Below are positions 15,694 to 42,566 of a stretch of DNA of 45,123 bases, piece by piece. The notes beneath the pieces are model-generated. The model was not told the origin of the DNA. It saw only the letters and a program-made list of their open reading frames with translations, and ran no database searches. A program made the position numbers and the translations under genes. Position 1 is the stretch's first letter. Each line of letters opens with the position of its first letter. Source of the DNA: a virus. The DNA is taken from UHGV virus genome UHGV-1374414; one strand, written 5' to 3'.

Positions 15694-17517
15694 TCATTTC
15701 TCCGCTAACTTACTTTCTAATGCCTCTACCTTCGCCGCTAAATGCTGAACAGTCGCGATGAGGTCAAGTAGTAGGACGTTTTCATCTAATGCCAGAAACT
15801 CTTTACCGGTTGCGTTGGTGTACTTGCGGACATACTGCGGGTCGATCTCTTCCAACTGCTGCGCGATAAAACCACGTCTAACAGTCTCTTTTTTGTCGTA
15901 GTTATAAACAAAGGAAGAGTATTCCATTGCCATAACGTTATCGAACGCAACTTGAGTGTCGATCCTGGCGATATCATGCTTCAGCGCCCTGTCGGATACC
16001 GGGGATTTTGCGAAAATATATCCAACAGACCCAACGTTGTTGCCGAAGGTAATATCGTATGACTCGGCGTTAAAGGTAGTATTCCGAACGATATCGGCGT
16101 TAGGCTGTGTTCCAGTCGCCAGATCATAGTCAAAGACCTGCGAAATCATAGCGTGAGGGTGTGATGACCCCGCAACGGGGTGAATCAACGCCCCGAACGA
16201 AATGAAGTTACGCCACCCACCACCCGCCGTGCCAGCGCCGCCACCGACAAAACCTACGTGGCCCGAGTATTGGCTGTCCATCCAGGTATTAGCAAGGGTC
16301 ACGTAGGTATTAACAGGCGACGCAGAAATGGACGACGGCCACAATGCTTTATAAAAAATAAGCCTACCATCATATTTAAAGTCCCACGCCGGCGAGTTAG
16401 CCGGGTCGAGGACGTTAACGGTCGCCAAACGGGTCCAGGCGTCTACGTTATTACGCCCCTGAAGCTGAATCGACGTTCTGTATTTTTCGGCCCCAGCAAC
16501 TACCACAGATGAGTCGAATCTACCGCCGTATACTTCTGCGCCATTCGCCGGATCTGAAGCGTAATTATTGCGTAAACCCCAAAGCCCCACGTCATCAAGA
16601 CCGCGCCACACCCACCCTTTAGTCGCAGAGTCAAGAGGGTCGACTGGGTCCGCGCCTACGCGAAGCGGTCCGGGCGGCATAAGGTTTGCCCACGACGCGC
16701 CTTTGTCCGCAAGCCCCGCGAGGTTGCCGGATTTGGTTAGTAGGTTGTCAGGGTTTACGCTTTGCGCCCACGCCTTGGCCTGATCGCGAAATCCCTGCGC
16801 GGCAGCGCTGGCGGCCTGCGCGTCAGTCTTCGCCGTATTGGCTTCGTCGCGAATAACGCCGGTATCCGTCTTGATCTGATTCGTCTGGTCCTTGATGGCC
16901 TGCGTATCAGTCTTAATCTGGTCAGTCTGCGTCTTGATGGTATTAGTGGCGTCGTGGATCGCCTGTGTATCAGCCTTAATCTGATTGGTGGCGTCGCGGA
17001 TGCCCGCCGTCTCGGTCTTGAAGCCTTCGGCCTCGTTCCGGTATCCCTGCGCGGCTGCTTCAGATGCAGCGGCTTGCTGTTGCAGGTTGCGCATCTCGAC
17101 GGGGTCTACTTCCTTCATCAAGGATGACAGGTAGCCCCATGACATACCCTGCATAACTTGCCCGTTGGGCAGCGTAACGGTGATTTCTTCAGCGTCGCCG
17201 AAGATTGCACGCCAGTTGTTTTCATCCGCGATCATCAAGCGTAATGCTTTCTGTGCCTGGACCGTTACGCCCATAGTTGCCAGGGACATGGTATCGCGCG
17301 CTACGCTATCCCACGCAAGCCCGGTTGCCGTTGGGCCGTCGAACGGCAGCACCAGGGTAAGCGCAGTGTCGCTTTCGATGGATGAAATTGCGATAGTGTA
17401 AGGGACTTGCCCCACTACCAGCGACAGAAAGTCGCCAGCCTTCAGCGCGGTAAACGTTGTGCCGACCCCCACAACCGCCTTGCTGTTATTCGTTACGGAT
17501 AGAGTACCCGCTGCCAT
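15694..17517 (-). CDS. tail fibre protein with C-terminal intramolecular chaperone (S74-like) domain
   Basis: ATG 17517 with GAGGA SD (ORF-track start 17544 lies in promoter motif); 11-aa repeats IKTDTQAIKDQTNQ; C-terminal ...VAFDNVMAMEYSSFVYNYD...AKVEALESKLAEK. Confidence 0.7.
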   Translation of the reverse strand: MAAGTLSVTNNSKAVVGVGTTFTALKAGDFLSLVVGQVPYTIAISSIESDTALTLVLPFDGPTATGLAWDSVARDTMSLATMGVTVQAQKALRLMIADENNWRAIFGDAEEITVTLPNGQVMQGMSWGYLSSLMKEVDPVEMRNLQQQAAASEAAAQGYRNEAEGFKTETAGIRDATNQIKADTQAIHDATNTIKTQTDQIKTDTQAIKDQTNQIKTDTGVIRDEANTAKTDAQAASAAAQGFRDQAKAWAQSVNPDNLLTKSGNLAGLADKGASWANLMPPGPLRVGADPVDPLDSATKGWVWRGLDDVGLWGLRNNYASDPANGAEVYGGRFDSSVVVAGAEKYRTSIQLQGRNNVDAWTRLATVNVLDPANSPAWDFKYDGRLIFYKALWPSSISASPVNTYVTLANTWMDSQYSGHVGFVGGGAGTAGGGWRNFISFGALIHPVAGSSHPHAMISQVFDYDLATGTQPNADIVRNTTFNAESYDITFGNNVGSVGYIFAKSPVSDRALKHDIARIDTQVAFDNVMAMEYSSFVYNYDKKETVRRGFIAQQLEEIDPQYVRKYTNATGKEFLALDENVLLLDLIATVQHLAAKVEALESKLAEK

Positions 17518-17538
17518 AGCTAAATCCTCGTAAATTGG

Positions 17539-17566
17539 TTGCATTCTTGATCGAGCGGTGTAATAC
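17539..17566 (+). promoter_or_regulatory. candidate promoter TTGCAT-16-TAATAC with ATTGGTTGCAT motif
   Basis: ATTGGTTGCAT at 17534-17544, about 55 nt upstream of lipoprotein gene. Confidence 0.35.
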
Positions 17567-17597
17567 TAAAACTCAACCAAATATAGGAGATGATACC

Positions 17598-17816
17598 ATG
17601 AAAACTTTAATTATGATTTGTGCTGTTCTTTTGTCCGGTTGCTCCGCTATGCCGACTAAAGTCTGCGACGCGACATACCAGAATAGTGGCATGGATTACT
17701 CAGTCCCCGTGTTTGGGGTCGCAGATTTTAGCGGTCACAAAATGTTACGGGCGGGATACCCGTTCAACTTCCAATACGTGTCAGTTGACCACTTCAAAAG
17801 CACAACCTGCAAATAA
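17598..17816 (+). CDS. small lipoprotein, candidate superinfection-exclusion protein (Cor/Llp-like)
   Basis: 72 aa; SD AGGAG 8 nt upstream; signal peptide with lipobox LLSGC; opposite strand to flanking tail genes; terminator follows. Confidence 0.6.
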   Translation: MKTLIMICAVLLSGCSAMPTKVCDATYQNSGMDYSVPVFGVADFSGHKMLRAGYPFNFQYVSVDHFKSTTCK

Positions 17817-17837
17817 GCCCCTTTCGGGGCTTTCTTC
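17814..17837 (+). terminator. intrinsic terminator
   Basis: agcccc-tttc-ggggct hairpin followed by ttcttc. Confidence 0.55.
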
Positions 17838-18510
17838 AATCATAATTGGCAGTGTTAATCGCCATAATCGCGTTGCCGTTGTTAGTATACCCCACCACAT
17901 CCCCCGTGGCGTTCCCCGACGACGCTGCCGATATACGCGTTCGCGACCCATCAAATCTGGCCCCCGTGTACGCTGTTACCGATATTACCTGCGGCTGGCC
18001 CTGCACAAAAAACCGGATCAGCGTAGACCCCAATATGCCCGGAGCGACGGCGTAGCTGCCGTTTAGCGTCTGGTCAATGTTAATCCCCCCGTTAGCGCCT
18101 GGCGATCCGACGGTAACTAAATCGCTTAGTACCCGGCTCTCGTTCGTCAGCACTAGCCTCCCCGTCTTATCCCAAATAGCGAAGCCCCACCGCGGAAGGG
18201 TCTGTGGGAATATGGCAAAGATGTATGCCGTCATCGTGAATCCTTGCCCAAATGGATTGCTGGCGCTCACCTTCACCACATTACCAACGCGAGAAGACCC
18301 TACGACGGTCGGCTGGGCGGTGTGCGTAGTTTTCACAAACGCTATTGCGGGGTAGTCACCGCCCAAATTAATATCGGCAGCCGCCGCCTGCGCAGTACCG
18401 TTAGCCGAAGACCCAACAACCACACGGCGGAATAGACAAAACGGCGTCGATTCTGGTGTGATAAACGGGTTGCCGTTTGGTAAGTCAATCAGCGCTCCGT
18501 AATTAGCCAT
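17836..18510 (-). CDS. tail protein (possible fibre/receptor-binding component)
   Basis: 224 aa; SD GGAG; lies between the J-like gene and the tail fibre gene. Confidence 0.5.
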   Translation of the reverse strand: MANYGALIDLPNGNPFITPESTPFCLFRRVVVGSSANGTAQAAAADINLGGDYPAIAFVKTTHTAQPTVVGSSRVGNVVKVSASNPFGQGFTMTAYIFAIFPQTLPRWGFAIWDKTGRLVLTNESRVLSDLVTVGSPGANGGINIDQTLNGSYAVAPGILGSTLIRFFVQGQPQVISVTAYTGARFDGSRTRISAASSGNATGDVVGYTNNGNAIMAINTANYD

Positions 18511-18812
18511 TATGCTCGCTCCACAAAAACAATAACGTCACATTCAGATGCGGAGTAAACCCCGCCACCTACCGCACTTGCCGCGGAAACCGTGATAGTG
18601 TTCCCGCTGGCGGTTATTCTGCGTCCTGGCCCGACCGCGCCTTTATCCAGTGCGACCACGTATCCGACCTTCATCCCCGCCGGTACAGGGAATGACCATG
18701 CGCCTGATTTTTGTCCTTCCGCAAGATGAATCCTTCCGATCACGCTTACCGGTTTAATGCCGTAGTTGTTTGGGCGTCCTTGCGCGTCCCACGTTGCGAT
18801 ACCGAATGCCAT
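18510..18812 (-). CDS. hypothetical tail-associated protein
   Basis: 100 aa; stop overlaps next start (TAATG). Confidence 0.5.
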   Translation of the reverse strand: MAFGIATWDAQGRPNNYGIKPVSVIGRIHLAEGQKSGAWSFPVPAGMKVGYVVALDKGAVGPGRRITASGNTITVSAASAVGGGVYSASECDVIVFVERA

Positions 18813-18823
18813 AAATAACCTCG

Positions 18824-18846
18824 TTAAAAAGGGGCCGAAGCCCCTA
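18824..18846 (-). terminator. intrinsic terminator/attenuator after J-like gene
   Basis: Minus strand: aggggcttcggcccct hairpin followed by ttttt. Confidence 0.5.
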
Positions 18847-18848
18847 TA

Positions 18849-21800
18849 CTACCAGCGACCAGTAAGCTCGCCAATTTGCACGCGTAAAACACCGTTCTCG
18901 TCTTTAACGCTGTAGTTGGTGTTGGTCTGCTTTGTACCACCACCGCTTCCGGTCCCCAGGTTGATAAACGTTCCATCCTTACCTAAGCGCCAGCCTCGCG
19001 TGCTGCCGTCGTAGTTATTAGATTGCAGCGTGTCCGTGATCTGCGCGAAGTTGATAGTCGCGTCCTTGATGCGTGCCGTGTCGATGTACACCGCCCCACC
19101 GTCTACGATAAACGCGGACGAAAGCGACCCGTTAGATGGGTGCATGATGTAGAACTGGTCCGCCTTGAACGCGATGCGTGATTTAACCGCGCCACCTTCC
19201 GCCACGACCGAAAGCTGCATACCGGCATCGTAGTAAGTACCGTTATACGTCACGCCAGCCTTAAGGCTGTATGTGGCACTACCGCCAGCATGGTTAAACG
19301 AAGACGTCATCTTCTGCTCGATAGCTGCGGACTGCTGACCGAACTGCGCCGCGACCTGGGTCTTATACTCCGCCAGTGCGCCCGCTACGTCTGCCGTTGC
19401 CGTTTGTACCTGCTGGATGGCTGCTTCCTGTTCCGAAAACTTAGCGGCAACAGTTTGCTGGTACTGGGCGAACGCTTGTTCATGCGTGCTTTGCGCAGTC
19501 TGCAACGTGTGGATCGCCGCTTCCGCATCGTCAAGGCGCGTGCCGATCAACGTCTCAAGTTGCGCGACCGCCTTGTGGGCATCCGCTGCCACGTTATACG
19601 CCACCGTGATTTCCGCATAAATCCCTTTATATTCGGCGCGGGCATTGAATAGCTGCTGGGCGTCCGTGAGCATTGATTCATAAATGCCTTGCGGAATGGT
19701 GTCTATTGCTTCCTGGAAGCGTTTACCATCCTCGGAAGTCAAGAACTCGTCATCAAGCCCCTTCATGTACTCGTCAACTTTGTCACTCACCTGGCCTTCA
19801 AACGGGGCGGACCAGTCCGACAGGTTGCCGATTTTATCAGCTACACGGGCGCGCAACTGCTGGTAAATGCCGAACTCCAGCGACGTTTGCGCATACTCCG
19901 CCCCAGGGTATGGGACGTTGGTTAGGAACTTCCATTCCGTTTCGCCCGTCTTGCGGACCTCAAGCTCGGTGTAAGAGATATCCGTCGCGGCGTTGTTGTG
20001 GTTCCACTTCCACAAAATTTGGTGGAGGCCAGAAATCGCGTTGGTGATGATAGGCGCGTTAAGCCCGCCGAGGCGACCTTCCACCGGCGTGATCGCGGAA
20101 GACACCCACGGGGACGAGATTTCGCCCATACCAATTGCGCGGACGCGTGCCTGGTAGTTACCGGAGAACACGTTAGGGATGTGCGCCCCATTCGACGCCG
20201 TGCGCGGGATATTCACCCAGTCGTTACCCCACTGGATTTCCATATTCTGCAAGCTGGTGCGTCGCCACTGGATTTCATACACCACGGCATCTTTCACCGG
20301 CGGGAAAACAATATCCACGTTGGTGATTAGCTGGCCTTGCGATGAGATCTGCGACGGGGTGATGGTAACGGATTCCGGCCCCTTCATTACACCGTCTGGC
20401 ACTTGCGTGAAGATACCAGGATCAAGGCGAGCGCCATTATCAACGGCATCATACTTGCTATCGTTGTATTCAATCCCGCGCACCGAGAAAGTGCTGGTAG
20501 AGTCGTCATATTCCAGGTCGGTGATGCGGAATTTCTGCAACTGGATATCATCGCCATCAACGCAAAACGGTTGGTCTGGAATCGGGTCGGCATCCAGTGC
20601 GGTTTTTAGAGTGACCTTGTTGCCGCTGACGTTGGCGATCTCGCGAGTCTCCACATTACCGCTATCGGTGCGTACCAGGAACTTATCGCCAGGGCGGAAC
20701 GTGATTTCGCAGTCCGTGTTCAGCACGGTACGCGTGCCTGGATCTGACAACAGGCGACCGCCTCGGGTCTCGAAGCCGCCAGAAATGTTTGTATCCGCGA
20801 TCGCGACTACGCTACCTGGAATAAAGAATAACCCTTCCATGCCAACTTTAAAGCTAACTTGCTGGTCAAGCTGGTTGGATATTAGCGCCCAGTGCCCGCG
20901 GCGTTGCGCTTCAGATTCACGCGTACAGCCGATCGCCGTGATATCAAGACGGTTGATCTTATGGCGGCGCACCAGTTCGACGCGCTGGCCCGTTGCGATA
21001 ACGTCATCATAGTGGTTTTTCGGGTTGCCGTATGCTACCGCGAAAGTGGAGTACCGCGTTTTCTGACTACCGGATGCGTAGTCGAATCGCCCATCAATTA
21101 CCGATGCGTTGGTGATAGTGTGAGATACCGCGGCTACCGGTTGGTCGCTGACGATATTCAACATCTGGTTGCCCCACCAGGTCATTCCGGCAAAGATGGC
21201 GGCTAAATCCTTAAGCACGGTCCAGGCGTCTGTCTGCGACTGGATGTACATATCATTCTTAAATCGGATTTCCCGCCCGCCGTTGCCGTCGCTTACCAGT
21301 TGATCGCAGCGCTGCGCAATCTGGTAAAGCGCATATCGGTTTAACATCTGCGGCTTGATCCTACGACCGAGGCCGAAGCGCTCAGTAATACAAATATCGT
21401 ACCAGTGCCACGCGGGATTATCTGTCCATGCGCGTTTGAACGTTCCATCCCAGTCCCCGGAATAGGTATGATTAATCGGGTCGTAGTTGTTCGGTATTAG
21501 AACTTTGCGGCCTTTGCACTTGATGGACACGCGCGGGATGTTCTGGAACGCTTTGGCGTCGAACTCCACAAACAACAGCGCGGTTAGCGGGTAACGCAGG
21601 CGGGCGTCGATAATCTCAGTGATGGATTGCACCCGGATATCATTAACCACTTTCGCCGATGTGGAGTCTGCCGTTATGCGGTGCACCTCCACTCGCCAGC
21701 CGGTATTCACGTTCGGCGGTAATTCGATGCGGTGGTCGCGCTCATATAGCGACATTGTTTTACCAACGGCGGCGAATCTGAACTCACGCGGGTCGGCGTT

Positions 21801-22268
21801 ATCCGTATACACAACGATCTTATAGTCGATGCGCCCGCCCACCAGGTCGCCATTATCTTCGTTGGTGTACAGGGCCGGAATACCGACACGAATGCGCACA
21901 GCGTCAAGACTGGTGTCGTTAATCTGGCGCACCCACGGCGTGCCGTTTTCCAGTTTTACACCGACGGATTGCTCGCTTTCTACCGCTGAAAATCCGTGGA
22001 TCACGTCCTGGTGCTGTGTGCCCGGGCGGAACTCCACGCGCGCGCCGGGGAAGTTTTCCGACAGGTCGGCGTTCTGGATCGGCGTGCCGTCCAGATATAC
22101 TCGCTGCCGCAATTCGCTGGCGCTGGTAATACTTTCGAATTCCCCTTCCCCTAGCGCAAGCAAGATGCGGATTTTAGCCAGGGAATGCAGGCTATCCGGC
22201 GTTTCCTGCGGGGTGTGCTGTTTGCCGCCGCCGCCTTTATGCCCTGTGACGTCGTAGATAATCGTCAT
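18849..22268 (-). CDS. tail tip / host-specificity protein (lambda J-like)
   Basis: 1139 aa; N-terminal ...GKQHTPQETPDSLHS... and YSGDWDGTFKRAWTDNPAWHWYD match remembered lambda J motifs; last gene of J/I/K/L/M order. Confidence 0.8.
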   Translation of the reverse strand: MTIIYDVTGHKGGGGKQHTPQETPDSLHSLAKIRILLALGEGEFESITSASELRQRVYLDGTPIQNADLSENFPGARVEFRPGTQHQDVIHGFSAVESEQSVGVKLENGTPWVRQINDTSLDAVRIRVGIPALYTNEDNGDLVGGRIDYKIVVYTDNADPREFRFAAVGKTMSLYERDHRIELPPNVNTGWRVEVHRITADSTSAKVVNDIRVQSITEIIDARLRYPLTALLFVEFDAKAFQNIPRVSIKCKGRKVLIPNNYDPINHTYSGDWDGTFKRAWTDNPAWHWYDICITERFGLGRRIKPQMLNRYALYQIAQRCDQLVSDGNGGREIRFKNDMYIQSQTDAWTVLKDLAAIFAGMTWWGNQMLNIVSDQPVAAVSHTITNASVIDGRFDYASGSQKTRYSTFAVAYGNPKNHYDDVIATGQRVELVRRHKINRLDITAIGCTRESEAQRRGHWALISNQLDQQVSFKVGMEGLFFIPGSVVAIADTNISGGFETRGGRLLSDPGTRTVLNTDCEITFRPGDKFLVRTDSGNVETREIANVSGNKVTLKTALDADPIPDQPFCVDGDDIQLQKFRITDLEYDDSTSTFSVRGIEYNDSKYDAVDNGARLDPGIFTQVPDGVMKGPESVTITPSQISSQGQLITNVDIVFPPVKDAVVYEIQWRRTSLQNMEIQWGNDWVNIPRTASNGAHIPNVFSGNYQARVRAIGMGEISSPWVSSAITPVEGRLGGLNAPIITNAISGLHQILWKWNHNNAATDISYTELEVRKTGETEWKFLTNVPYPGAEYAQTSLEFGIYQQLRARVADKIGNLSDWSAPFEGQVSDKVDEYMKGLDDEFLTSEDGKRFQEAIDTIPQGIYESMLTDAQQLFNARAEYKGIYAEITVAYNVAADAHKAVAQLETLIGTRLDDAEAAIHTLQTAQSTHEQAFAQYQQTVAAKFSEQEAAIQQVQTATADVAGALAEYKTQVAAQFGQQSAAIEQKMTSSFNHAGGSATYSLKAGVTYNGTYYDAGMQLSVVAEGGAVKSRIAFKADQFYIMHPSNGSLSSAFIVDGGAVYIDTARIKDATINFAQITDTLQSNNYDGSTRGWRLGKDGTFINLGTGSGGGTKQTNTNYSVKDENGVLRVQIGELTGRW

Positions 22269-34201: not shown

Positions 34202-34238
34202 AAAAAGGGGCCATCACGGCCCCCGAATTATTTTCTGC
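34202..34238. terminator. bidirectional intrinsic terminator
   Basis: A-run, ggggcc-atcac-ggcccc hairpin, then gaattatttt. Confidence 0.6.
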
Positions 34239-34444
34239 AACTCCAGCACTTGCGCCCGCAGCTTCGCGCCGCATTCCATATTTTTCACGTCAATCATCAA
34301 ATCTTCGTCGGGGTCCGCGGACGGGTTATCGAACTTGCACGGCGGTCGCAGTGCCGACTCCGTTAGCGGCATCAACGGCACGTTGCTTGATCCGCACGCG
34401 CTCAGCATCAAAACTACAATCAGGGCGGTTAGGGCGCGTAACAT
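34214..34444 (-). CDS. outer-membrane spanin (Rz1-like lipoprotein), partly embedded in i-spanin gene
   Basis: ATG 34444 with AAGAGG SD; signal peptide with lipobox LSAC; Pro-rich; out-of-frame overlap with 34326-34655. Confidence 0.6.
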   Translation of the reverse strand: MLRALTALIVVLMLSACGSSNVPLMPLTESALRPPCKFDNPSADPDEDLMIDVKNMECGAKLRAQVLELQKIIRGP

Positions 34445-34655
34445 ATTTAACAACCTCTTTCGTGATAGTCCGGTATTCTACGTCGCGGGCTTGTTCGGCC
34501 TGCACGGAGCGCTCAATAACTTTAGTTTGCTGCCGTTGGGCTTCTGCTTGCGCTTCTTGCGCCGCCTCCGCCACTACGCCAGCGCGATAGGAGTCACCTA
34601 GCCAGAATCCTACCACCAGACCGATAACCAGTCCGATCGCTGCATATTTAATCAC
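34326..34655 (-). CDS. inner-membrane spanin (Rz-like)
   Basis: GTG 34655 with GGGGG SD; N-terminal TM helix AAIGLVIGLVVGFWLG then charged coiled-coil AEAAQEAQAEAQRQQ. Confidence 0.55.
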   Translation of the reverse strand: MIKYAAIGLVIGLVVGFWLGDSYRAGVVAEAAQEAQAEAQRQQTKVIERSVQAEQARDVEYRTITKEVVKYVTRPNRPDCSFDAERVRIKQRAVDAANGVGTATAVQVR

Positions 34656-41555: not shown

Positions 41556-42047
41556 TTATGCTGCGTTACGTCCGATTCTCTCGGCAACGTCCCACTGCTT
41601 ACCATCGAATAGCGCTTGCCTGCCGATTGCTCGACGGACCAGACCCTTGAGCACTTCCCCGCCTTGCTTGCGGAACTGCGGCAGAGTAGCACGGACCTTC
41701 GCCCAGTCACCCAGTCGCACTGCATCATCGAAGTCATTAGCGATATGGTCCGGTACGATCGGACCCTGACCTGCATTGATTACCAGATCCACCAGCGCGT
41801 CGAATTGCGCCTGGTTAATGCTCGGATGTGCGTATTTGTTCACCCAATCTTCCGCATACGCCACGTCACGCTTGAGTAGTTCCAGCGCTTCCGCGCGGGT
41901 AATGCTTCGAGGCGGGTTAGTGCCGGTGTGTCCATAACCCCAGGTGTACAGGCCGCGGGCCTGCTCTTTCTTAGTCGCGAAATACGGCACTGGGCTAAAA
42001 GCCTCCCATGCTGCCGTGAATCGCAGACCGTTGTCACTGAATCGCAT
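41556..42047 (-). CDS. endolysin (phage lysozyme, GH24-like)
   Basis: 163 aa; N-terminal ...EAFSPVPYFATKKEQARGLYTWGYGHT resembles T4-lysozyme catalytic region; preceded by two small membrane proteins. Confidence 0.7.
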   Translation of the reverse strand: MRFSDNGLRFTAAWEAFSPVPYFATKKEQARGLYTWGYGHTGTNPPRSITRAEALELLKRDVAYAEDWVNKYAHPSINQAQFDALVDLVINAGQGPIVPDHIANDFDDAVRLGDWAKVRATLPQFRKQGGEVLKGLVRRAIGRQALFDGKQWDVAERIGRNAA

Positions 42048-42279
42048 GTTTTACCCCATTCAAAACAGCATTACGCAGCGTGCGCAATGCAAACAGCCAG
42101 ATTAACGCGGTCCAGGTGGTATCAGATACGTCTCCTGTTTGCAGCAGTCCGATAATACAGACCATTGCCGTTAACAGATACAGCACCCGACCGAAAATGC
42201 CATCCTGGACGGACGGCGCATACACGTTAAACAGGGACGAAGCCCCGATGATAACAAACAACAGGACGGAGATAATCAT
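42034..42279 (-). CDS. holin/antiholin-like small membrane protein
   Basis: 81 aa with 2-3 hydrophobic helices; overlaps endolysin start. Confidence 0.55.
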   Translation of the reverse strand: MIISVLLFVIIGASSLFNVYAPSVQDGIFGRVLYLLTAMVCIIGLLQTGDVSDTTWTALIWLFALRTLRNAVLNGVKHAIQ

Positions 42280-42566
42280 TTTGCACCCCCCGGAAGTCGG
42301 AACGACGCAATAGTCCCCCTGATCCGGTCGGCGATTGGCATCCAGAAGATCGCAGTTACGAAGCCCAAACCGGCGACAGTGCGCTCACCCGACAAACCAG
42401 CCCACTCAGCGATAGCCGGTGCGCCAAATATGGCACACAGGAAGCCAACTACGATATATAAAACGAAGTTCAGCGGCCCTTTCGTAGCCTCGCCATGAAT
42501 GCGTGCGCCTACGAAGCCGCCAGCCAGACATGCGATGGCAAATAGCCACTCGTTTATCTTATCCAT
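42276..42566 (-). CDS. holin-like membrane protein
   Basis: 96 aa; three predicted TM helices; first gene after upstream terminator. Confidence 0.55.
   Translation of the reverse strand: MDKINEWLFAIACLAGGFVGARIHGEATKGPLNFVLYIVVGFLCAIFGAPAIAEWAGLSGERTVAGLGFVTAIFWMPIADRIRGTIASFRLPGGAK

What the first reader, a model, noticed from the sequence alone, without database searches (positions are those of the whole stretch)
17598..17816. Opposite-strand lipoprotein between tail fibre genes: candidate receptor-blocking exclusion protein
A 72-aa lipoprotein with lipobox LLSGC, its own promoter-like motif, strong SD and terminator is inserted against the tail operon next to the receptor-binding genes. 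Cor/Llp-type exclusion lipoproteins of T1/phi80/T5-like phages occupy the same kind of position.
Basis: inference. Interest (0 to 1): 0.45.

Follow-up and report, generated by a model that had tools for sequence, protein, structure and literature searches.

The report
Known Cor receptor-blocking lipoprotein gene

The parts
17598..17816 (+). cor: 72-aa phage exclusion lipoprotein Cor (precursor), stop codon included
   Evidence: ORF. PHROG 1119 E 1e-27. NCBIfam NF047972 59.2 bits against cut-off 31. Alignment with T1, N15, HK022 and phi80 Cor. dN/dS 0.03-0.15.
17598..17642 (+). Signal peptide (14 codons) plus the lipobox Cys15 codon (17640-17642). This DNA is shared with Dhillonviruses that carry other exclusion lipoproteins.
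   Evidence: The sequence MKTLIMICAVLLSG|C. The same signal peptide occurs in 14 loci with three types of mature domain. Homology to LptD-type and PTXU06-type genomes ends at 17641-17647.
17585..17589 (+). Shine-Dalgarno AGGAG, 8 nt upstream of the ATG
   Evidence: Read directly. Conserved as AGGAG or AGGGG in 14 loci.
17539..17567 (+). Candidate sigma-70 promoter: TTGCAT, 17 nt, TGn-AATACT. Inferred, and weak by consensus.
   Evidence: Read directly. Not called by the scan. The hexamers are invariant and the spacer variable in 14 loci. The T5 llp gene has an annotated promoter in the equivalent divergent intergenic region.
17815..17832 (.). GC-rich hairpin between the convergent stop codons of cor and the 224-aa gene; a likely bidirectional terminator
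   Evidence: Folded at about -12 kcal/mol on both strands. T1 has an annotated rho-independent terminator at the same position. The consensus scan did not call it because the T-tract is imperfect.
17836..18510 (-). 224-aa gp23-like protein (PHROG 425 'membrane associated protein'); part of the FhuA-type receptor-recognition locus
   Evidence: PHROG 425 E 8.6e-70. 53-64% identity to T1 orf31, N15 gp23 and phi80 gp23. No related solved structure found by sequence search of the PDB.
18510..18812 (-). 100-aa gp22-like protein (PHROG 557 'outer membrane protein'); part of the FhuA-type receptor-recognition locus
   Evidence: PHROG 557 E 1.1e-32. 53-73% identity to T1 orf32, N15 gp22 and phi80 gp22.
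18849..22268 (-). gpJ-like central tail fibre / tail tip protein. Its last 46-55 codons (up to window 18988-19013) co-vary with the cassette when compared with LptD-type genomes.
   Evidence: ORF. KarlBarth and Gluttony annotations. Homology break points.
15694..17517 (-). Lateral tail fibre gene, divergent from cor across an 80-bp intergenic region. The likely start is the ATG at 17517 with SD GAGGA, not 17544.
   Evidence: ORF. Start as annotated in KarlBarth and Gluttony, and the blastn alignment begins at 17517.

Best explanation
The gene encodes the Cor exclusion lipoprotein of a virulent Dhillonvirus whose terminal receptor is most likely FhuA.

Proposed mechanism:
- The gene is transcribed from its own weak host-type promoter, independently of the late tail operon on the other strand.
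- The precursor is exported, lipidated at Cys15 and cleaved by signal peptidase II.
- Ser at +2 directs sorting by Lol to the inner leaflet of the outer membrane.
- The roughly 57-residue mature beta-domain, probably tied by a Cys23-Cys71 disulphide, binds the periplasmic face and plug of FhuA, as T5 Llp does.
- This locks FhuA in a state whose extracellular loops (EL7/EL8) no longer accept the phage receptor-binding protein.

The results would be that further FhuA-dependent phages cannot adsorb or inject, and that progeny are not wasted on debris of the lysed cell.

Shown here: the ORF, the lipoprotein signals, Cor family membership, the cassette context, the Llp-like fold and purifying selection. 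Inferred: expression timing, the disulphide, binding to FhuA and the phenotype.
For: Family membership:
- PHROG 1119 E 1e-27, full length.
- NCBIfam equivalog NF047972, 59.2 bits against a cut-off of 31.
- 51% identity to T1 Cor and 40-42% to N15, HK022 and phi80 Cor. G14, C15, C23, RAGYPF and C71 are invariant in these six sequences. C15, C23, C71, G53 and P55 are invariant in 92 sequences.

Context:
- The three-gene FhuA cassette of phi80, N15 and T1 is present, with 53-73% identical gp22- and gp23-like proteins.
- cor is inverted with a hairpin after it, exactly as in T1.

Receptor:
- Dhillonviruses with 90-91% identical DNA across this locus (JLBYU60, JLBYU37, Teewinot, Envy) or an 89% identical Cor (bob) are FhuA-dependent by experiment. 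JLBYU60, JLBYU37 and Teewinot need loop 8 (PMC10373560).
- Llp folds EL7 and EL8 of FhuA inward (PMC9586334).
- Dhillonviruses that use LptD carry an Rtp45 homologue plus the solved LptD-binding RBP in the same slot instead.

Fold:
- The AF2 model with a 92-sequence alignment has mean pLDDT 83.6, above 90 in the mature domain.

Selection: dN/dS 0.03-0.15.

Literature: the cor cassette has been reported in FhuA-using Drexlerviridae and Dhillonvirus phages, with an AF3 model docking Cor on the periplasmic side of FhuA (PMC13164509).
Against: - I found no experiment on any Dhillonvirus Cor. The phenotype is extrapolated from phi80, N15, HK022/mEp167, T1 and T5.
- The receptor of this particular phage is inferred from relatives.
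- Sequence similarity to Llp is marginal: phmmer E 0.89, profile E 0.02, and hhalign 88% probability over only 42 columns, largely signal peptide. Foldseek E-values were not significant (best Llp hit E 0.097, TM 0.53-0.60).
- The promoter is below the consensus threshold and the terminator has a poor T-tract.
- Distant Cor-like lipoproteins occur in phages reported to use BtuB. Family membership alone therefore does not fix the target.
Confidence: 0.85

Rival explanations
1. It is a Cor-family lipoprotein, but it blocks a different TonB-dependent or other outer-membrane receptor (BtuB, LptD, YncD) rather than FhuA.
For: Cor-like proteins are reported next to BtuB-type loci (PMC13164509). The PTXU06-type Dhillonvirus lipoprotein is a distant full-length Cor relative (hhalign 96%; PHROG 1119 E 3e-7), and PTXU06 is described as BtuB-dependent (PMC10373560).
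Against: - The window's Cor passes the equivalog model built on FhuA-type Cor.
- Its partner genes are 57-73% identical to those of the FhuA phages phi80 and N15.
- Phages with the same locus at about 90% DNA identity are FhuA-dependent by experiment.
- LptD-type Dhillonviruses carry an unrelated Rtp45-like lipoprotein in this slot.
Confidence: 0.06
2. The molecular mechanism is the same, but the benefit under selection in this virulent phage is 'lytic conversion': protecting released progeny from inactivation on FhuA-bearing debris of the lysed cell, rather than excluding competing phages.
For: The T5 llp product is annotated as a lytic conversion lipoprotein that inactivates FhuA. The BASEL follow-up paper states that virulent porin-targeting phages encode Cor or Llp to prevent adsorption of offspring to debris (PMC11990801). 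No integrase is annotated in the sister genome Gluttony.
Against: The two benefits are not exclusive, and nothing in the sequence separates them. This rival differs from the main explanation only in the payoff, not in how the protein works.
Confidence: 0.4
3. It is a lysis lipoprotein (o-spanin, Rz1-like), or a generic lipoprotein moron unrelated to receptor blocking.
For: There are weak PHROG hits to Rz-like spanins (E 0.2-0.5), confined to the signal peptide.
Against: - The window has its own spanin pair at about 34214-34655 (-), and holins and endolysin at 41556-42566 (-).
- No i-spanin partner lies next to cor.
- Full-length matches are to Cor only.
Confidence: 0.01

Closest known systems
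Cor of phages T1, phi80, N15 and HK022/mEp167 (NCBIfam NF047972 'phage exclusion lipoprotein Cor'; PHROG 1119)
   Same: The length is similar (72 aa against 75-78). The lipobox, the two further cysteines and the RAGYPF motif are conserved. Identity is 40-51%. The gene sits after the gpJ, gp22-like, gp23-like cassette. As in T1, it lies on the opposite strand with a terminator hairpin between the convergent genes.
   Different: In the temperate phages phi80 and N15, cor is co-oriented with the tail genes; here and in T1 it is inverted. The mature N-terminal linker is 3 residues shorter than in the lambdoid proteins. Here a lateral tail fibre gene follows divergently, whereas recombination genes follow in T1.
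Cor of other Dhillonviruses (for example GeorgBuechner, SSL-2009a, Envy, Gluttony, JLBYU60), already annotated as 'Cor superinfection exclusion protein'
   Same: These proteins are 86-96% identical. The locus, the signal peptide and the intergenic region are the same.
   Different: They differ only at the allele level. Synonymous divergence is high (dS 0.5-1.3), while the neighbouring 100-aa gene is 99.7% identical to that of Gluttony.
Llp of phage T5 (PDB 8A60 chain B, 7QJF)
   Different: Sequence similarity is marginal: 24% in the structural alignment, and profile matches that are largely signal peptide. The partner RBP differs: pb5 in T5 against the gp22/gp23-like pair here. The RAGYPF motif was not aligned to Llp in any comparison run here.
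Rtp45-type exclusion lipoprotein of Rtp and Oekolampad (PDB 9RPS chain D)
   Same: It occupies the same slot in Dhillonvirus genomes, with the same promoter region and an identical signal peptide. It has the same logic: a periplasmic lipoprotein that disables the phage's own receptor (PMC12685063).
   Different: The mature domain is unrelated (hhalign aligns only the signal peptide). It targets LptDE. It is co-transcribed with its RBP on the same strand.

Membership tests
Cor phage exclusion lipoprotein (NCBIfam NF047972 / PHROG 1119) | Full-length profile match above the curated cut-off | tested here: met
   NF047972 equivalog: 59.2 bits against a cut-off of 31, residues 2-71 on profile positions 2-76 of 78. 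PHROG 1119: E 1e-27, residues 1-72 on 1-75 of 78.
Cor phage exclusion lipoprotein (NCBIfam NF047972 / PHROG 1119) | Lipoprotein signal peptide with a lipobox cysteine and no Asp at +2 (outer-membrane sorting) | tested here: met
   The sequence is MKTLIMICAVLLSG-C15-S. G14 and C15 are invariant in the six-sequence alignment, and C15 is invariant in 92 sequences. Lipidation itself was not tested.
Cor phage exclusion lipoprotein (NCBIfam NF047972 / PHROG 1119) | Two further conserved cysteines near the ends of the mature domain, and the R-A-G-Y-P-F motif | tested here: met
   C23 and C71 are invariant in 92 sequences. RAGYPF is invariant in the six-sequence alignment with T1, N15, HK022 and phi80. 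Disulphide formation is not testable here.
Cor phage exclusion lipoprotein (NCBIfam NF047972 / PHROG 1119) | Position directly after the gpJ, gp22-like, gp23-like receptor-recognition genes | tested here: met
   The same three-gene cassette occurs in T1, N15 and phi80, with 53-73% identical partner proteins.
Cor phage exclusion lipoprotein (NCBIfam NF047972 / PHROG 1119) | Carrier phage uses FhuA as its terminal receptor | tested here: inconclusive
   This was not testable for this phage. Relatives with the same locus (JLBYU60, JLBYU37, Teewinot, bob, Envy) are FhuA-dependent by experiment (PMC10373560).
Cor phage exclusion lipoprotein (NCBIfam NF047972 / PHROG 1119) | Expression excludes FhuA-dependent phages and inactivates FhuA transport | not testable with these tools
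   This needs plating and uptake assays. The literature covers only phi80, N15, HK022/mEp167 and T1 (cited in PMC13164509).
T5 Llp lytic conversion lipoprotein | Significant sequence similarity over the mature domain | tested here: inconclusive
   phmmer against the PDB gives 8a60_B as the only hit, but at E 0.89. The Cor profile gives E 0.02, similar to the unrelated lipoprotein TraV. hhalign gives 87.8% probability over 42 columns.
T5 Llp lytic conversion lipoprotein | Same three-dimensional fold | tested here: met
Rtp45-type LptD exclusion lipoprotein (PHROG 4281, PDB 9RPS_D) | Sequence similarity beyond the signal peptide | tested here: not met
   PHROG 4281 gives E 0.088 over residues 2-22 only. 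The Cor profile against the Oekolampad lipoprotein aligns only 28 signal-peptide columns.
o-spanin (Rz1-like) | Lipoprotein gene embedded in, or next to, an i-spanin gene in the lysis functions | tested here: not met
   The spanin pair lies at about 34214-34655 (-), elsewhere in the window. The PHROG spanin hits (E 0.2-0.5) cover the signal peptide only.

The most novel reading that the evidence does not exclude
The lipobox cysteine codon of this gene is the fixed left-hand joint of a swappable receptor-specificity cassette. One conserved backbone segment carries the divergent promoter region, the SD and the signal peptide MKTLIMICAVLLSGC. It drives whichever mature exclusion domain arrives with the matching receptor-binding genes: Cor for FhuA, Rtp45-like for LptD, or a distant Cor-like domain in PTXU06-type phages. 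Adsorption specificity and self-exclusion specificity would then be inherited as one unit whose recombination joint lies inside a coding sequence. I found no statement of this joint in the papers read; the BASEL paper (PMC8594841) contains neither 'signal peptide' nor 'lipoprotein'. It may still be known or implicit in published locus figures.
Probability: 0.5. Interest if true: 0.3.

Novelty: already known. Interest (0 to 1): 0.13.

Why it matters
For the gene itself, very little. It confirms that tool-free reading of sequence can recognise a receptor-blocking lipoprotein from its lipobox and position. It also predicts in silico that this phage uses FhuA. In practice, the cor allele together with the two partner genes is a marker of receptor specificity, which is useful for choosing phage cocktails that do not cross-exclude. 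The shared signal peptide and promoter joint suggests an easy design rule for re-targeting such phages: swap everything from the lipobox cysteine to the end of gpJ.

Tried and rejected
- Pfam has no model for this protein (0 hits at E <= 10).
- The first word-indexed protein search found only 6 close relatives. A profile of six Cor proteins was needed to reach 260.
- Single-sequence AlphaFold gave a poor model (pLDDT 59.5) and was not used.
- Sequence-only links to Llp are not convincing. I therefore do not file the protein in the Llp sequence family.
I kept both as weak or inferred features, on the basis of conservation and folding.
- An exact-pattern scan of IMG/VR gave only 9 loci. That is enough to illustrate the shared signal peptide but not to quantify it.
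- The spanin reading was rejected, and the Rtp45-family reading was rejected.
- One literature search failed on a term that was too short and was not repeated.

Full report
**What the window is.** The first 25 kb match about 185 phage records. The best matches are Dhillonvirus genomes (Pride, JLBYU60, Sloth and others) at 91-92% identity over about 95% of the query. The 45.1-kb window is therefore essentially a complete genome of an HK578/SO-1-like virulent siphophage of E. coli.

**The observation.**
- The ORF at 17598..17816 on the + strand encodes 72 aa: MKTLIMICAVLLSGCSAMPTKVCDATYQNSGMDYSVPVFGVADFSGHKMLRAGYPFNFQYVSVDHFKSTTCK.
- It has a textbook lipoprotein signal peptide: Lys2, a hydrophobic core, the lipobox L-S-G-C15, and Ser at +2.
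- AGGAG lies at 17585-17589, 8 nt before the ATG.
- Every neighbouring gene is on the other strand: gpJ-like 18849..22268, a 100-aa gene 18510..18812, a 224-aa gene 17836..18510, and the lateral tail fibre.
- The lateral tail fibre most likely starts at 17517, as annotated in relatives, rather than at the upstream ATG at 17544. That leaves an 80-bp divergent intergenic region.

**Terminator and promoter.**
- The 19 nt between the convergent stop codons of cor and the 224-aa gene are filled by the hairpin AAGCCCC-TTTC-GGGGCTT (17815-17832). It folds at about -12 kcal/mol on either strand.
- The consensus scan did not call the hairpin because the T-run is imperfect. T1 has an annotated rho-independent terminator at the same place.
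- The promoter-like motif is weak: TTGCAT, 17 nt, TGn-AATACT at 17539-17567. The scan did not call it either.
- However, both hexamers are invariant and the spacer varies across 14 Dhillonvirus loci.

**The gene is under selection.** Among six distinct Dhillonvirus alleles, dN/dS is 0.03-0.15 at dS 0.5-1.3. The gene is clearly functional.

**What it is.**
- Pfam has nothing.
- PHROG 1119 'Cor superinfection exclusion protein' matches end to end at E 1e-27.
- The NCBIfam equivalog NF047972 'phage exclusion lipoprotein Cor' scores 59.2 bits against a curated cut-off of 31.
- tblastn finds the protein in 250 phage records. Identity is 86-96% in Dhillonviruses, about 50% in T1-like phages including T1 itself, 43% to N15 gene 24 (Cor) and 41% to HK022 Cor.
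- In an alignment with T1, N15, HK022 and phi80 Cor, the lipobox G-C, Cys23, RAGYPF and Cys71 are invariant. In 92 family members, C15, C23, C71, G53 and P55 are invariant.
- RefSeq already names this gene 'Cor superinfection exclusion protein' in sister genomes such as Gluttony, SSL-2009a and Envy.

**Context.**
- The two genes between gpJ and cor belong to PHROG 557 and PHROG 425. They are 53-73% identical to T1 orf32/orf31, N15 gp22/gp23 and phi80 gp22/gp23.
- This is the conserved cassette that follows gpJ in FhuA-dependent phages.
- In the temperate phages phi80 and N15, cor is co-oriented with the tail genes. In T1, as here, it is inverted and convergent with a terminator between the genes.
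T5 llp is likewise divergent from the receptor-binding gene oad, with annotated promoters in the gap between them.

**Which receptor.**
- JLBYU60, JLBYU37 and Teewinot share about 90-91% DNA identity with the window across this locus. They are FhuA-dependent by experiment and need FhuA loop 8 (PMC10373560).
- bob and Envy (Cor 89% and 92% identical) are also reported there as FhuA-dependent.
- The BASEL study matched alleles of this locus to terminal receptors 'without exception' across small siphoviruses, including Dhillonvirus (PMC8594841).
- A 2026 paper found the cor cassette in FhuA-using Drexlerviridae and Dhillonvirus phages (PMC13164509).

**A comparative control run here.**
- In Oekolampad and AV129, the same slot holds a 73-aa lipoprotein and a 321-aa protein. 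Oekolampad is an LptD phage (PMC12685063).
- The Oekolampad lipoprotein is a homologue of the solved LptDE-binding exclusion protein Rtp45 (9RPS_D, E 2e-8).
- The Oekolampad 321-aa protein is the solved LptD-binding RBP (9RPT_C, E 1e-212).
- The identity of the exclusion lipoprotein therefore tracks the receptor.

**How it most likely works.**
- An AlphaFold2 model built on a 92-sequence alignment has mean pLDDT 83.6, above 90 through the mature beta-domain.
- Foldseek agrees on TM (0.53/0.60) but not on significance.
- Llp is a periplasmic outer-membrane lipoprotein. It binds the FhuA plug and folds loops EL7 and EL8 inward over the phage binding site. It carries a Cys11-Cys58 disulphide, and its authors proposed that Cor proteins act the same way (PMC9586334).
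- The window protein has cysteines at mature positions 1, 9 and 57.
[quoted passage not shown] Only the sequence and fold steps are shown here. Binding and phenotype are inferred.

**Membership against resemblance.**
- The protein is a member of the Cor family. All sequence-defined criteria are met, while phenotype is untested.
- It works like Llp and has the Llp fold. Sequence evidence for Llp membership is marginal and dominated by the signal peptide, so I do not file it as an Llp.
- It is not Rtp45-like.
- It is not a spanin. The window has its own spanins at about 34214-34655 and its holins and endolysin at 41556-42566.

**Side observation.**
- DNA homology between the window and Dhillonviruses with other cassettes runs unbroken through the tail-fibre start, the 80-bp intergenic region, the SD and the signal peptide. 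It stops at window 17641-17647, that is, at the lipobox Cys codon (17640-17642) or within two codons after it.
- Homology resumes at 18988-19013, inside the last 46-55 codons of gpJ, for the LptD type. It resumes at 18829, just past the gpJ stop, for the PTXU06 type.
- Fourteen loci share the signal peptide MKTLIMICAVLLSGC (one has a V9 variant) but carry three different mature domains.
- The PTXU06-type lipoprotein is a distant full-length Cor relative (hhalign 96%). There the gp22- and gp23-like genes are inverted and co-oriented with it.
- The exchangeable unit is therefore the mature exclusion domain plus the receptor-binding genes, sometimes with the gpJ tail. Its left joint lies inside the lipoprotein gene.
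- I did not find this joint described in the papers I read, but it is a detail within a known modular system.

**Verdict.** The feature is an already known and already annotated Cor gene in its usual place. Interest is low. The cassette joint at the lipobox is the only mildly new point.

Noticed in passing
window 17518-17647, compared with L003 (Oekolampad), L004 (PTXU06), L005 (AV129) and L009-L017: Dhillonviruses with FhuA-, LptD- and PTXU06-type cassettes share near-identical DNA for the intergenic region, the SD and the lipoprotein signal peptide. Homology breaks at the lipobox Cys codon (17641-17647) and resumes at 18829 or at 18988-19013. Three unrelated or distant mature exclusion domains are fused to one signal peptide.
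   Followed up: partly
window 17517-17544 (- strand): The mechanical ORF list starts the lateral tail fibre at the ATG at 17544 (616 aa). Relatives annotate the start equivalent to 17517 (MAAGTLSV...), which has a GAGGA SD 7 nt upstream, and homology to the Gluttony gene begins there.
   Followed up: partly
window 17598-18812 compared with L018 (Gluttony): The locus is strongly mosaic. The 100-aa gene is 99.7% and the 224-aa gene 96.6% identical in DNA to Gluttony, but cor is only 84%, mostly through synonymous differences (dS about 1.1). This suggests old cor alleles shuffled at the hairpin between the genes.
   Followed up: partly
L004 2099-3255 (PTXU06; the same layout is expected in Zar3M): In this variant cassette, a distant Cor-like 89-aa lipoprotein is followed on the same strand by PHROG 557-like and PHROG 425-like genes. 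The two putative receptor-binding genes are thus inverted relative to the window and form one unit with the lipoprotein gene, opposite to gpJ.
   Followed up: partly
window 17610-17637 (- strand): A sigma-70-like site (CGGACA, 16 nt, CATAAT; 9 of 12) lies inside the signal-peptide coding region of cor and points towards the lateral tail fibre gene. The number of such hits in the region is no more than the shuffles give, so it may be chance.
   Followed up: no
phage records MG065648.1, MG065640.1, MG065688.1 and OQ221563.1 (hits H45, H61, H69, H139): Records labelled 'Campylobacter phage' and 'Acinetobacter phage NJ01' carry Dhillonvirus- or T1-like loci with E. coli-type Cor or lipoprotein genes at up to 88% protein identity. 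The host labels look doubtful.
   Followed up: no
window about 34214-34655 (-) and 41556-42566 (-): The spanin pair sits among the head genes, about 7 kb away from the holin-holin-endolysin block, so the lysis functions are split in this genome as in Gluttony.
   Followed up: no
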